Assembly: GCA_012295275.1 (NCBI GenBank)
Contig: CM022671.1
Coordinates: forward strand, 19,096,001 to 19,160,000
DNA length: 64,000 nucleotides
DNA from: Chrysomallon squamiferum
Lineage: Eukaryota > Animalia > Mollusca
Reading direction: 5' to 3'
This document shows positions 14,701 through 29,700 of the stretch, one piece after another. Under the pieces are notes generated by a model, which worked only from the letters and a program-made list of their open reading frames with translations, did no database searches and was not told the DNA's origin. Both the position numbers and the translations under genes were made by a program. The first letter of the stretch is position 1. The number at the start of each line of letters is the position of its first letter.

Positions 14701-17700
14701 GAAATCATTCCTTTGCACTTAACAGAAAATGAAAGTGCAGACAGCTTGGGGAAGAAATTAAAAGAAACTCAGAAGCAAATAGAAAAATACAAAGGTATAC
14801 CAGTTTTATAAATTAACTATTTTCTTTTTACAGCCATATATTGCCCATTATGTATGATCAGTATGTTATACTCCAGATTAATCTTTCATTTTAAAATAAT
14901 TGATTATCATTAACATTTGATAGTTTTGGTTTTCCTGTTAAATGTTTTTTTTTTTTAACGAGTTAACACATTATTTTTACAGCACAAATCAAGGAATCTG
15001 ATAACAAACTTCAGGAAAGTAATGACAAAATTGAACAGTTACAAAGTAAGTTTGTCAGTTTAAAAATAAATTATTTATTTATTAATATATCAGTTTGAAA
15101 AGTTGAAGATAAATGACACCATATAAAGCCAAAACAAATTTTAAGTCAAAAGGAAAAAAAACGTTTACATTTTTCTTTTTTTGTTTTCTATTTGAAATAG
15201 TATATTAGTTGCAGTTCTTTGATATCTGTGCCTTATTGCACCATATTTTTAATTAATAATATTCTCCTTTTTTTGTTATTTTAGAAGAATTAGAAATGGT
15301 CCGCATGGATTCTAAGAAATACATTGTAAAAATTACCTCATTGGAAGGTAAGGATATGTGTTTATTTGTGTGTATCAGTTTCAGTTTTTACTGTCTTAAT
15401 TTATTTTTGGCTGGAAGTGAAGAGGCAGCTCTGTTGTTTACTAAAAGCTTTAAAATTTAGGTGTAAATATACAAACACACATATACTTACAGCATATATA
15501 CATAAATACATGTTTGTGTTTGAAAATGACTTAATGTTTTGAAAGTTATTTCAGAAATTTTGTTTCTTTCCTCTCTTTCCACACTTAATGATTTTGTTTT
15601 CAGATTTTGTACATTCATATTTAAATTCTTGTAATATTACCTGACCAGTATTTAAAGAATAATATTAATATTTTTGTAAGCAATTGCTTAACTCTATACA
15701 GCAAAGGTTAGTACTAATTTTAAAAGGTTAAAATTAATAATTAGTTCTGTAAGGATTAATAATTACTAATATTACTTATAACATTTTAAGATAATTTAAT
15801 AAAAATGTGTTGATATTAATTCTTTTTTTTTTTCCTAATATATTTGTTTTTGCATCTCCTTCTGTTGCTTATCCAATTTTAATTTGTATTTTGAACAGAG
15901 TAAAATGTTGAAGCACTGCTGAATTTTAATGTTTGAGTTAATATCATAAACCCACACTTATAAAACATCTGTAAGATAGTAAATGCATTCTAAATTTAAA
16001 ATTATATAAAAGTTAAAATGAGTTTGAATGAAACTGACACGTTCAAGAATTAAGTATGGTCAGTTAGATTTATTTTTGTCTGTCTTTTTTATTAGGGATT
16101 TATTTATTTATTATTTTTATTTTTTATTATTTTATTTTATTTATTTTATATTTATTTGTGTATATATATATATATATATATATTTTTTTTTTTTTTTTCC
16201 GTAAACTTTTTAAGAATATTTTGTTATACACTACTTTTAGATAAGATAGAGAATGTAGAAATTAATTCTAAAGGAAAAAATAATCCATTAGAAGGTAAGG
16301 CAATTTGGTTAAATTTGTGTTCATATTTTGTTGTTAAATATTATATGAATAAAACACATAAAAAAAACCCCAAAATATTTAAAGTAATTGACTTTATTTT
16401 TATTTTTATTTTTCAAAGAAGGTAACTGTAGAGATCCCACTGAATATTACCTATTACTTTCTATTAAAAATATTTTTTTTTTAACCCCTAAACAGCAGAA
16501 CCTAATTAAGTTTTAAATTATGAGATAAAATAAACATGAACTGATGATTTGAAAATGTATTCAAAATACACACACACCACACACACCCATCTGGTAGAAT
16601 ATTTTGAAGTTTTACTGGATGACCTTGAAACCATTGTTTCTTTTTTTGAGTTGGGGAGGTGTTATGTTGTTGTTTATATTGTTTTGTTTTTTTAAGTATT
16701 TAGTGATAATTGTTGTTGATATACTTGTTTACAGGCAACAATCACTGCTAAATAACTAAAGACCTGTAAATAGTTAAATTTAATAATATATACTTAAGAT
16801 ATATTTGACTTTAAAAACAAAAATATTTATCATTTAAGTCATTTCATGTTTTCTTTTGTTTTCCTTTCTTTTTTAACCATGACATTGACTAATTACTCAT
16901 TTAAAAACGATTTTAGCATACTTTCAAAATATATCTGTGTTCAACTTGTTTTAGAAGATTTTAATAACTTAAAGAATACAGATTCAGTTAAAAAAATTGA
17001 AAAAAGCATGGGTTTAGAAGGTAAGATTTTCTTTTTTAATTTAATTATGAAATAAATAACAGTACTTTTTAAAATATTATTGTTATTTTATTATTCATAT
17101 TGTTGAAATTTATTTATTTATTTACCTTGTTCTTATCGTTGTTTTTGACTTTTAATAGAATTAAAGCTATTTAAATTTATTTTAGTATATGTTACGGAGA
17201 GCTGCTTATTATTTTATAAAAACTACCATTTGTCATTCTGTTTTAAACATCAGTTAAATATTTTTTTATCTGATGAATGTATATATTCCTTAAACAGTTA
17301 TTTTTTGTGTACCCTGAAAAATGTTCATCCCACATATTCTTGGAATAGTTTTAGTCATCTTGATAGTAAAAATATTTAGTTATTTAAATTGGCTTTTTCA
17401 ATATCTTTTATGGAAGCCAAAATACAGATCTGTATCAAGTTAATCTTTTATTTATAATTTGTTTTCTAATTAATATTAATTTATTATTATTATTATTATT
17501 ACTGTTTTTGTTTTTGTTATTGTTATTGTTACAGTTTATTTTATATATTATTTCAAATATGTTTTCGTCCAGCCATTATTTTTATAGCTTAAAAATTACT
17601 TCATCAACTGTATCATTTTAGGGTTTATAAATATCAGTATTTTTGGATTGTTTTGTTTTTTTCTTTCAAATTACTATGAAACTGATTGATGAGATACTGA

Positions 17701-26700: not shown

Positions 26701-29700
26701 ATTGGAAGGTTTGGAGATATTACTGAAATAAAATTTAGATATTGACATATGTTTTTGTTTCCAACATGATTCACAGATCCCTTTCTTAGAAAGTTCATTT
26801 GTTCTTTGATCAGTCACCCTTTTGAACTATATCCTTAATGACTGAGCTAATTAAATGTTTGCATGTCTATGTTTTCATAACAGCTATTACTCACATAACA
26901 TTTTTGAATGTTTTTTGAAAATAATACTTTTCAAATCATTAATAAATTTCGCTGAATCTGATTTAAAAATTTGTGTTGACCAGTTAGAACTTGTGATCTT
27001 TTTGTATAGAACCAAATTTAATTTGATAGGATTTTTTTATTTTTAATTTTGATATACATATTTATTTATTATTATTATTATTTTTACCCCAATGGTTTAA
27101 TTCTGTAGAAGAAAACAAGAAATTACATAGGGATGTCAACATGTACATTCAAAAGAATTCCTCTCTTGAAAGTAAGAGATATTTAAGTGGTTTTGTGTTA
27201 TTAATAATTTGTTGATTTTTAAACCTTCTATAATTTTTGTATTGACTTTATTTCTACTTTTTTTTTACTTTTTACTTTTTTTTAAATCAAGATTAAAATA
27301 TTCCAATTGCATTATTTGTAAGTAAAAAGTATTTATCCACCTATTTTTGCTTAGTTGAAATTATGTTTCCTGTTTTTTTCAGACTATATTTAAATAATTG
27401 TTTCAGTATAGAAACTGAAATCAGAGATTCAAAATTGAAATTACAAGTTTTGTTTCATTCTTTTCCTTGATTTTTAATTTTATATAAATGTTAATATAAA
27501 TCTTAGCAGTTGTTAAAGGCCATTTTTATTTTTTATTTTTTTTATTTTTTTACTTATTATAATTATTATTTTTTAATTATTTATATTTTCATGATTCACT
27601 TATATCAGAGGAGTTAGAGAAGTTTTATGCAGATTCTTTGAAATATACTGAAATGAATAATTCTTTGGAAGGTAAGATAAATAAAAAAACAATCAGTGTA
27701 ATGTTCACACACATTAATTTTGTTTGTTTAACTTTACCAGTTTGCAGACAAATTATATACATTTATTTATATTATTGAAATGCTGAGAATTTGATATTTA
27801 AAATTACTGTTTTAACATATTTTTGAAATGAATTTTAAATAACATCTGTATATGCAAATGCATAATTGGGCACACTTGCACACAGACAGACATACATACA
27901 TTCAATCATACAAAAGTAAAAAAGAAACTATTTGCTTGTAATAATGATGCAGTTACTTTTCACAAATATATTTTGGCTGAATTAAAAATAATTTAACAGA
28001 TTTAAACAAAAAATGAAAATCTTTAGATTTTTATTGTTGATTAATTTTAGAAAAGATAGAATTATTGAACTTGGAATGTAAGAATTATGTTGATAAAATC
28101 ATATTAATGGAAGGTAAGATTTTGTAATTAATGTTTTGTTTAAGCTTTTAGATTTATTTTTTAAATTACTAATGTTATTTAAATATTTGAATATAACTGA
28201 ATTATATTTTATAAAAGCAAAAAATATTATAAGAAAGTTCCAGTGTGTAATATTTCATTAAATATCTAAGAACAACATTTTGATTTGAAGCAGATAAATT
28301 ATAAGCTTACTTAAAGAAATTTTGGAAATAAATTATTTAGAAATTTATGAAATCGGACATTTGGATAGGGGAAATAAACCCCCACAAAACCCAAAGAAAC
28401 TTGTATTTTTATTAATATATATTAATTGTTTCTTTGGGTTTTTTTTGGTTTTTTGTTGGGAAATTTCTGGGAGGTTTTTTATTTTTATTTTTATTTTTTT
28501 TAATTTATTATTTTATTTTTGGTAGGTATGGTAAAATGATAGTGTGTTGATAATTAAAGAGATGTCAAAGGTTAATGATTACTACATGTCTAACAAAATT
28601 TCCACAGTGAATAAAAGTTCCATTGTGAATTGATTAATTTCAGTTGAATGCATTTTATATCTCACTTTAAATCAAAATTAGTAAGTTTTATAAGTGTGGG
28701 TCAGTAATGCCTCAGCATTTAAAAACAAAATCTTCTCTTTTTTTTTCTGTCTTTTAAATTTACTGTGCTTCATGATGCTCTGTTTAGATGATTAATATAT
28801 TTTAGTCATTTTATTAGTTGTGTTGCTTTTCTTTCTCTTTCTTTTTTTTTTTTTCTTTCTTGATTTTCAATGTAATTTTCTGGTGTTATTTTTCATGTTA
28901 AAACATGCAGATTTGGGTTTTTGCTGGTGCCTGACATTGATTTATCAGATACTCGTGCATAAATTAAAAAAACAACCAAAAACCCCACAAATTTTGAAAA
29001 TCAATCTGACAAAATATCACCATGGAGGTCCTTGATGGTTAAATAATCAGCTAAAAACACACAAAAACCCAAAACAACACCAGAAACATATTATAGCATC
29101 TTTATCTTATTTTTTTATTATTTGAGTTTGGTTTTATCTCCTTGCTAACTCAGTAATTGCTGCTTTCTACATAATTTTTCTTCGAATTTTTTATTTTATT
29201 TTATTTTTTATTTTTATTTTTTTTAAATAATATAAAAAAGAATAATTTCTAAATATATATATATTTTTAAATTTAGAAACTATTCTTTTTTATTTTATCA
29301 TTTTTAAAAAATGTTAATTTTACTTTTCATTATTATTAATACTTTGTTTGTTACTAGTTTGTCATCATTTTGTTTCTTTTCTGTTGTTTTTTGTGTGTAC
29401 AGAAAGCTTAAAGCTCTCCGACACTCATTTGAATCAATTGATGGAAAATACGCAACATGATTTAAAATGTAAGTTTGTACATGTATTTGGCCATCTTCAT
29501 ATATTCTCTCTTGTTTAAAGGCCCTCTATATGGTACTAATACATTGCATAATGAATCCAAAATACTTTATTTTCAGTGAAGGAATTATCCATCAATTGGT
29601 TTTTAAACTGTTAGTAAAAATTATAGATGCACATAGATGAATCATAGTGAACAATAAAAATATATTAACACATATTAAAATATATTCCATATGGAAACAA

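What the first reader, a model, noticed from the sequence alone, without database searches (positions are those of the whole stretch)
15285..28113. 22-copy cassette array of 3-heptad coiled-coil exons inside SLMAP: a possible splicing-tunable molecular ruler
Seen: 22 homologous mini-exons at 15285, 16241, 16955, 18061, 18437, 19322, 19880, 20415, 20894, 21628, 22194, 22540, 22934, 23462, 23870, 24228, 24980, 26054, 26646, 27109, 27609 and 28051. Each is AG/GT bounded, phase 1-1 and stop-free, with consensus ~EELEKxxxD(S/C)KKYIEKNxSLE. Thirteen are 63 nt (21 aa = 3 heptads); the total is 1353 nt (451 aa). A protein with R1 alone is ~814 aa, and with all copies ~1244 aa. Known: SLMAP is a tail-anchored STRIPAK adaptor of roughly 800 aa whose FHA domain binds phosphorylated Hippo/MST-type kinases; I know of no such exon array in SLMAP. 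Inference: any subset of cassettes preserves frame, so splicing could vary the rod length between membrane anchor and FHA head by up to ~430 residues, or swap one variable segment in mutually exclusive (Dscam-like) fashion.
Basis: partly seen in the sequence, partly recalled or inferred. Interest (0 to 1): 0.92.

Follow-up and report, generated by a model that had tools for sequence, protein, structure and literature searches.

The report
Twenty-two copied exons lengthen snail SLMAP
In a snail's gene for the membrane-anchored scaffold protein SLMAP, one small exon has been copied into a row of 22; RNA shows six of them joined one after another rather than chosen one at a time, so they would lengthen the protein's rod by up to about half, likely as an optional block.

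Summary
The array is real. It has 22 homologous AG/GT, phase 1-1, stop-free exons (1353 nt) in SLMAP of a gastropod close to Gigantopelta aegis. They are under relaxed purifying selection (dN/dS about 0.4) and keep a heptad pattern.

One RNA contig joins R13 to R18 in series at canonical sites, so these six are not pseudo-exons and the Dscam-like one-of-many reading fails. No skipping junction was seen among R14-R18, so a finely tunable ruler is not shown.

Best reading: tandem copies of ancestral exon R1 form a long isoform, up to +430 aa (about 64 nm), between the FHA/STRIPAK head and the tail anchor, likely switched largely as a block. Support for switching is indirect: weak acceptors, a 108-aa in-or-out block of similar copies at a different site in Gigantopelta, and ancestral 21-aa cassettes in other molluscs, five ancestral 21-aa segments being absent here. 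Junctions R1-R2 and R22-next exon were not tested.

It works like titin PEVK-type exon arrays, as a new lineage-specific variant. The scan's notes held no earlier report of this array, only one of a similar design in another genome.

The parts
5560..5778 (+). SLMAP exon, first half of the FHA domain (Met at 5590)
   Evidence: Pfam PF00498; 90% identical to G. aegis SLMAP
6171..6327 (+). SLMAP exon, second half of the FHA domain
   Evidence: Pfam PF00498
6644..14794 (+). eleven further SLMAP exons (linker, the region matching the SIKE1-binding coil, first rod)
   Evidence: tblastn; AG/GT model
14983..15045 (+). 63-nt phase 1-1 exon directly before the array
15285..15347 (+). R1, the ancestral exon, orthologous to the single copy of other molluscs
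   Evidence: 19 of 20 residues identical to the G. aegis counterpart; single unit in orthologues
16241..16294 (+). R2, 54 nt
16955..17020 (+). R3, 66 nt
18061..18123 (+). R4, 63 nt
18437..18499 (+). R5, 63 nt
19322..19384 (+). R6, 63 nt
19880..19933 (+). R7, 54 nt
20415..20483 (+). R8, 69 nt
20894..20953 (+). R9, 60 nt; inferred start of the X2 contig
   Evidence: length arithmetic (inference)
21628..21669 (+). R10, 42 nt
22194..22265 (+). R11, 72 nt
22540..22602 (+). R12, 63 nt
22934..22996 (+). R13, 63 nt; spliced to R14 in RNA
   Evidence: loose end of the X2 contig matches 22965-22994 once in the window
23462..23524 (+). R14, 63 nt; most recent duplicate of R13; spliced to R15
   Evidence: joint skipping 345 nt GT..AG; 83% nt identity to R13
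23870..23920 (+). R15, 51 nt; spliced to R16
   Evidence: joint skipping 307 nt
24228..24290 (+). R16, 63 nt; spliced to R17
   Evidence: joint skipping 689 nt
24980..25042 (+). R17, 63 nt; spliced to R18
   Evidence: joint skipping 1011 nt
26054..26119 (+). R18, 66 nt; end of the X2 contig
26646..26708 (+). R19, 63 nt; weakest donor of the array
27109..27171 (+). R20, 63 nt
27609..27671 (+). R21, 63 nt
28051..28113 (+). R22, 63 nt
29403..29468 (+). 66-nt phase 1-1 exon after the array; its orthologue is skipped in at least one annotated isoform of each of 6 mollusc species compared
30635..35741 (+). eight further SLMAP rod exons; no R copy between 34160 and 34678, where G. aegis has its extra copies; five ancestral 21-aa segments not found
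36048..36146 (+). last exon, hydrophobic tail anchor and stop
   Evidence: 69% identical to the Haliotis C-terminus; model

Best explanation
Tandem copying of one ancestral 63-nt coiled-coil exon of SLMAP produced 21 extra in-frame exons; six of them are spliced one after another in RNA, and the array likely makes a long isoform whose rod would be up to 430 residues (about 64 nm) longer, likely switched in or out mostly as a block. Shown: the exons, their selection, their heptad pattern, and junctions R13-R14-R15-R16-R17-R18. Inferred: (1) origin by exon-plus-intron tandem duplication, easy because every exon from 14229 to 34160 is phase 1-1; (2) the array joins R1 upstream and 29403 downstream in a full-length FHA-to-anchor transcript; (3) inclusion is optional, with an R1-only form of ordinary length; (4) the insert is a loosely constrained dimeric coiled-coil spacer that would move the kinase-binding FHA domain and the SIKE1/STRIPAK site further from the anchoring membrane without changing either binding site.
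For: Series splicing: run X2, one 608-nt contig with 4 GT..AG joints skipping 345, 307, 689 and 1011 nt, equal to the predicted introns, and a loose end matching the end of R13. Its length equals R9-R13 (300) + R14-R18 (306) + 2, so ten copies in series is likely. Selection: pooled dN/dS 0.37 (0.44 on inner codons) over 78 pairs of the 13 63-nt copies, pN<pS in 72 of 78; pN/pS 0.60 against 0.96 +/- 0.09 in neutral simulations (lowest 0.80 of 60 at the nearest matched divergence); 21 of 21 stop-free against a simulated mean of 6.8, at most 12. Heptads: a/d contrast z 7.9 against shuffles, spectral peak at 3.51. Loose constraint: the 12 extra 63-nt copies keep 6-10 of 20 residues of the G. aegis R1, against 19 for R1; GC 0.28 against 0.38 in other exons. 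Tandem origin: R13/R14 83% identical, introns 12 and 13 72% over 181 nt. Optional use, indirect: acceptors of R2-R22 score 1.8 bits against 6.9 for the 24 other exons (P 1.8e-4; pyrimidines 0.61 against 0.69, P 0.019); in G. aegis a 108-aa block holding the later copies is present in 3 of 5 annotated isoforms, absent in 2, never partial. Position: FHA is residues 5-135 and the SIKE1-binding coil 167-226 in mammalian SLMAP (PMC6323126, passages); the array starts after model residue 476.
Against: No junction that skips a copy was seen (0 of 6 possible among R14-R18), and no R1-only transcript of this species was seen, so optional use is not shown. RNA was laid on only 5 of 22 copies; R1-R2 and R22-29403 are untested. 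All junctions come from one contig of one run, an assembly path and not a molecule. Donors of the copies are stronger than those of the other exons (9.0 against 6.65 bits, P 0.002), which fits routine inclusion. The splice-site and dN/dS tests treat related copies as independent, and the matrices rest on 23-24 sites. 8 of 22 copies break the heptad register and R2-R22 hold 3 Pro and 7.9% Asn, so a stiff 64-nm rod is an upper bound. The G. aegis isoforms are database models, not experiments. A single 31-nt record at the end of R18 hints at more than one exit there, which would mean finer splicing than a block.
Confidence: 0.5

Rival explanations
1. Fixed elongation: all 22 copies are constitutive and this species simply has a 1255-residue SLMAP.
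For: Unbroken series path with no skip joint in X2; strong donors; every copy is open and in frame; five ancestral 21-aa segments are missing, so some added length may be compensation.
Against: Weak acceptors; the similar copies in G. aegis are optional as a block; copies diverge far faster than R1, which suits a minor or tissue-limited form.
Confidence: 0.2
2. Graded ruler: copies are included in many subsets, giving a ladder of rod lengths.
For: Any subset keeps frame; Haliotis rufescens isoforms drop 21, 42 or 63 aa in combinations; acceptor scores range from -6.9 to 9.6 bits; a 31-nt record after R18 hints at a fork; contigs drop rare variants.
Against: 0 of 6 skip junctions among R14-R18 and one unbroken contig; no partial block among 5 G. 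aegis isoforms.
Confidence: 0.18
3. The array belongs to a shorter transcript from an internal promoter that lacks the FHA head, as mammalian SLMAP1/2 do, so it does not set a head-to-anchor distance.
For: Mammalian SLMAP has FHA-less, muscle-limited isoforms (PMC2712456, passages) likely driven by internal promoters (PMC9343278, passages); R1-R2 was not observed.
Against: The copies follow R1 directly, share its phase and read through in one open frame with upstream and downstream exons; no promoter or start was looked for or seen.
Confidence: 0.08
4. Dscam-like mutually exclusive cluster: one copy per transcript.
For: Homologous tandem exons of like length and phase.
Against: Six copies joined in series; introns of 239-1289 nt; no element shared by all array introns in an all-against-all comparison.
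Confidence: 0.02
5. Pseudo-exons: decaying intronic copies, rarely spliced and without protein role.
For: High divergence and AT-driven composition; contigs in X1 and X3 run unspliced through R15, R16 and R17, which may be DNA or pre-mRNA.
Against: Canonical junctions in RNA; 21 of 21 stop-free; all 9 length variants in frame; dN/dS below 1.
Confidence: 0.02

Closest known systems
SLMAP of other molluscs and mammals (tail-anchored FHA/coiled-coil STRIPAK adaptor)
   Same: Same gene and domain order; rod already built of 60-66-nt phase 1-1 exons; annotated mollusc isoforms vary by 21-22-aa cassettes; mammalian SLMAP has many splice forms (PMC11461071, PMC4335364, passages).
   Different: Of 140 fetched proteins over 500 aa, 110 have one scoring unit, 25 none, and only 5 (all G. 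aegis) more than one. Here there are 22 copies of one exon, and five ancestral 21-aa segments are missing.
Gigantopelta aegis SLMAP (XP_041349936-40)
   Same: Extra copies of the same unit (three that score and one degenerate), same absence of the five ancestral segments, optional 108-aa block.
   Different: Its copies lie about 190 residues further downstream, after the exon matching 34005-34160, where this window has none; the first is closer to R1 (14 of 20) than to any of the 12 extra 63-nt copies here (at most 12 of 20). Its genome could not be read, so an unannotated array after its R1 is not excluded.
Titin PEVK region
   Same: Many short repetitive exons spliced in series, alternative splicing, length variation across species (PMC6469411, abstract and opening).
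   Different: PEVK is an elastic disordered spring in a muscle giant (recalled); this is a heptad-patterned insert in a signalling adaptor, and tissue-variable inclusion is not shown. No homology.
Chicken BG gene cytoplasmic tail
   Same: Membrane-anchored protein with a coiled-coil tail of many heptad repeats whose length is changed by splicing (PMC5938342, abstract).
   Different: One heptad per 21-nt exon (recalled) and truncation by intron read-through; here three heptads per exon and an internal insert. No homology.
Mutually exclusive tandem duplicated exons (Dscam type)
   Same: Homologous exons made by tandem duplication.
   Different: Defined by one copy per transcript (PMC9741552, passages); here six copies share one RNA path.

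Membership tests
SLMAP | N-terminal FHA domain | tested here: met
   PF00498 on both exons, 21.5 and 33.8 bits against cut-off 20.7
SLMAP | long coiled-coil rod | tested here: met
   heptad contrast z 3.0-7.8 in five non-array segments; sequence test only
SLMAP | C-terminal tail anchor | tested here: met
   last exon hydrophobic and 69% identical to the Haliotis SLMAP C-terminus; by homology, no membrane predictor run
SLMAP | orthology over the whole length | tested here: met
   632 of 812 aligned residues identical to G. aegis, 550 of 812 to H. rufescens
SLMAP | binds phosphorylated MST/Hippo kinases and SIKE1 | not tested
   known for mammals (PMC6323126); assumed here
Mutually exclusive tandem exon cluster (Dscam type) | homologous exons in tandem | tested here: met
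Mutually exclusive tandem exon cluster (Dscam type) | one copy per transcript | tested here: not met
   R13-R18 in series
Mutually exclusive tandem exon cluster (Dscam type) | docking/selector pairing or steric block between copies (recalled) | tested here: inconclusive
   no element common to all introns in blastn; no RNA-pairing search run
Length-tuning repeated-exon arrays (titin PEVK type; works-like only) | many short frame-neutral repeated exons spliced in series | tested here: met
   direct for 6 of 22
Length-tuning repeated-exon arrays (titin PEVK type; works-like only) | inclusion differs between tissues or stages | tested here: inconclusive
   joints in 1 of 4 runs laid; contigs cannot show absence
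Length-tuning repeated-exon arrays (titin PEVK type; works-like only) | length changes a physical property or distance | not testable with these tools
   needs protein work

The most novel reading that the evidence does not exclude
After losing SLMAP's ancestral length-varying cassettes, two related vent-snail lineages each rebuilt a switchable spacer by copying the same 63-nt exon to different places. In this species the array is a splice-controlled extension of up to 64 nm that sets, tissue by tissue and perhaps in 3-nm steps, how far the Hippo-kinase/STRIPAK head reaches from its membrane: a signalling adaptor tuned by length the way titin is.
Probability: 0.25. Interest if true: 0.75.

Novelty: new variant of a known kind. 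Interest (0 to 1): 0.5.

Why it matters
SLMAP's rod is usually treated as a passive linker. A natural version with a 52% longer rod and unchanged ends gives a direct test of whether head-to-membrane distance matters for STRIPAK/Hippo signalling or organelle tethering. It is also a clean case of exon-array birth in a conserved gene: a seed exon, ongoing tandem copying, apparent reuse of the same seed elsewhere in a relative, and loss of the older cassettes. Such arrays of 42-72-nt exons are easily missed by annotation. The kind of mechanism is known, and the most striking version (one of 22) is ruled out, which caps the score.

Tried and rejected
No genome is held for this window, so no genome-wide search was possible.

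Sample-specific inclusion: joints appeared in X2 only, 0 of 4 introns in each of X1, X3 and X5. X1 and X3 have unspliced contigs through R15, R16 and R17. These may be DNA or pre-mRNA, and contigs show presence, not absence, so this is not counted as evidence. X5 (kind unknown) gave mostly short repeat matches and was no use as a DNA control. The other 5 of 9 listed joints are non-canonical or change strand inside AT-rich introns and were set aside.

Searches for a protein carrying the array: the profile search of longer proteins found only 2 G. aegis entries among 7992 candidates. The 1.84-billion search found 0, but its profile had 42 positions padded with intron-derived columns, and it did not return G. 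aegis either, so it is uninformative. A search for short fragments around R1 found 0 of 115 candidates.

Splicing-factor motifs (recalled): 14 tested; only ACTAAY was raised (16 against 8, one-sided P 0.047), which is not significant after correction. Rfam: 0 matches. No upstream exon ending in ATG|GT was found by a simple pattern. No structure prediction was run, so helix continuity across the register breaks is open.

Literature: 'SLMAP'+'mollus' gave 1 irrelevant paper; 'SLMAP'+'exon duplication' 2, neither on this by listing; 0 of 25 listed vent-snail papers contain 'slmap'; two searches gave nothing on such an array. Subscription journals and genome supplements were not searched.
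Full report
Setting. The window is 26% GC eukaryotic DNA. The exon at 5590-5778 finds SLMAP proteins, best Gigantopelta aegis at 90%, a peltospirid vent snail (search listing). A 24-exon model plus R1 reads open for 824 residues, all junctions AG/GT, and is 78% identical to G. 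aegis SLMAP over 812 aligned residues. FHA lies on two exons and the tail anchor on 36048-36146. The organism is therefore likely a close relative of G. aegis; I did not name it further.

Observation. R2-R22 have no stop in 409 codons, whereas the other frames have stops in 18 and 19 of 21 copies, and shuffles give at most 10 stop-free of 21 in 2000 trials. Self-trained protein and DNA profiles find these 22 and no further whole copy on either strand; the DNA gap is 22.7 against 6.3 bits.

Are they exons? Five public runs hold part of the region, 4 on record as RNA. I laid X1, X2, X3 and X5 on 23430-26155, which holds 5 of the 22 copies. In X2 one 608-nt contig joins R14, R15, R16, R17 and R18 through four GT..AG joints skipping 345, 307, 689 and 1011 nt, exactly the predicted introns. 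Its upstream loose end matches the end of R13 once in the window. So six copies are spliced in series. The contig length is R9-R13 (300) plus R14-R18 (306) plus 2, and the two extra letters are what R8's end and the intron before R9 share; ten copies in series is thus likely but inferred. This removes the pseudo-exon and Dscam-like readings for R13-R18. It does not show tuning: 0 of 6 possible skip joints were listed. A 31-nt record holding R18's last 30 letters plus one other letter hints at more than one exit after R18, where R19 and R21 begin AG and R20, R22 and 29403 begin AA, but other assembly causes are possible. All this rests on one contig of one run, a graph path rather than a molecule.

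Selection and shape. Over 78 pairs of the 13 63-nt copies, pN is 0.389 and pS 0.647 (dN/dS 0.37; 0.44 without edge codons; pN<pS in 72 of 78). Neutral simulation at the nearest matched divergence gives pN/pS 0.96 +/- 0.09 against 0.60 observed, and leaves on average 6.8 of 21 copies stop-free, at most 12. Pairs are not independent. The array keeps a heptad pattern (a/d contrast z 7.9, peak period 3.51), with hydrophobic residues at unit positions 3 (12 of 13), 13 (11 of 13) and 20 (13 of 13) and often polar ones at 10 and 17. But 8 of 22 copies break the register, and R2-R22 have 3 Pro, 7.9% Asn and few Ala, Gln or Arg (6.7% against 15-33% in the native rod), with GC 0.28 against 0.38. R1 keeps 19 of 20 residues with G. 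aegis; the 12 extra 63-nt copies keep 6-10. This is what a spacer constrained for frame and heptad pattern, but little else, would look like. At 0.1485 nm per residue (recalled) 430 residues give at most 64 nm.

Origin. Every exon from 14229 to 34160 is phase 1-1, so any can be copied or skipped in frame. R13 and R14 are 83% identical and introns 12 and 13 align at 72% over 181 nt, marking a recent exon-plus-intron duplication; the other pairs are 40-70% identical. Of 185 proteins fetched, the 140 over 500 aa were scanned: 110 have one unit, 25 none above 8 bits, and 5 more than one, all G. aegis; many rows are isoforms of one species. G. aegis has three more scoring units and one degenerate unit, but after the exon matching 34005-34160, where this window has none. 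Its first extra unit is closer to R1 (14 of 20) than to any extra 63-nt copy here (at most 12 of 20), so separate expansions from the same seed are at least as likely as one shared array; its genome could not be read. Both species lack a 106-residue span of five 21-aa segments found in Haliotis, Patella, Pomacea and Crassostrea: 20 queries gave no window hit above 26 bits, against 62.6 and 38.8 for two controls.

Is inclusion optional? Evidence is indirect. Acceptors of R2-R22 score 1.8 bits against 6.9 for the other 24 exons (P 1.8e-4), with poorer pyrimidine tracts (0.61 against 0.69; R1 0.88), but donors are stronger (9.0 against 6.65, P 0.002). In G. aegis a 108-aa block with the later copies is in 3 of 5 annotated isoforms and out of 2, never partial. 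In H. rufescens, 15 isoforms compared with the longest drop 21, 42 or 63 aa from the span lost here. The exon after the array is skipped in at least one isoform in 6 of 6 species sets. These are database models. Together they favour an optional long form, mainly block-like, over a fixed or finely graded one, at about even odds against all rivals.

Mechanism. In mammals the FHA domain (5-135) binds phosphorylated MST kinases and the coil at 167-226 binds SIKE1, which links to striatin (PMC6323126, passages); the tail anchor sets the membrane (PMC2712456, passages). The array starts after model residue 476, between these ends. Including it would extend reach without touching either binding site. 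That this changes signalling or tethering is inference. FHA-less forms from internal promoters exist in mammals and remain a minor rival.

Known systems. It is a member of the SLMAP family. It is not a mutually exclusive cluster as defined in PMC9741552 (passages). It works most like titin PEVK arrays (PMC6469411, abstract and opening) and loosely like chicken BG tails (PMC5938342, abstract; lead from an earlier scan note). PMC11461071 and PMC4335364 (passages) state that SLMAP has many splice forms. Searches showed no paper on such an array in SLMAP; subscription journals and genome supplements were not covered. The scan's notes held no look-alike stretch.

Verdict. A real, transcribed, lineage-specific 22-fold exon array that would lengthen SLMAP's rod by up to half. 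New variant of a known kind; interest 0.5.

Noticed in passing
window:19395-19489: Two partial re-copies of the 3' half of R6 lie in the next intron; the second ends in a donor-like site. Not whole exons.
   Followed up: partly
window:20484-20500: R8's donor is duplicated 13 nt downstream; use of the second would shift the frame.
   Followed up: partly
window:25516-25534: A 19-nt AG/GT-bounded remnant resembling the start of a copy, out of frame; the X2 contig splices over it.
   Followed up: partly
window:24009: Contigs of X1 and X2 carry insertions of 24 and 12 nt here relative to the window, so this intron is polymorphic.
   Followed up: no
window:32363-32886: Five 21-aa SLMAP segments of other molluscs, three of them alternatively spliced in Haliotis, were not found here or elsewhere in the window, nor in G. 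aegis proteins.
   Followed up: yes
window:1-5559: Homologues begin about 11 residues before the Met at 5590; the frame is open from the acceptor at 5560, but no upstream exon supplying the ATG was found by a simple pattern.
   Followed up: partly
window:16241-28113: R2-R22 encode 12 cysteines; in the 63-nt copies several fall at predicted core positions 10 and 17, where the two chains of a dimer would face each other. Significance untested.
   Followed up: no
P0172 (Crassostrea angulata isoform X9): This annotated isoform ends without the hydrophobic tail anchor.
   Followed up: no
window:37000-64000: Not studied beyond an ORF listing and an Rfam scan with 0 matches.
   Followed up: no
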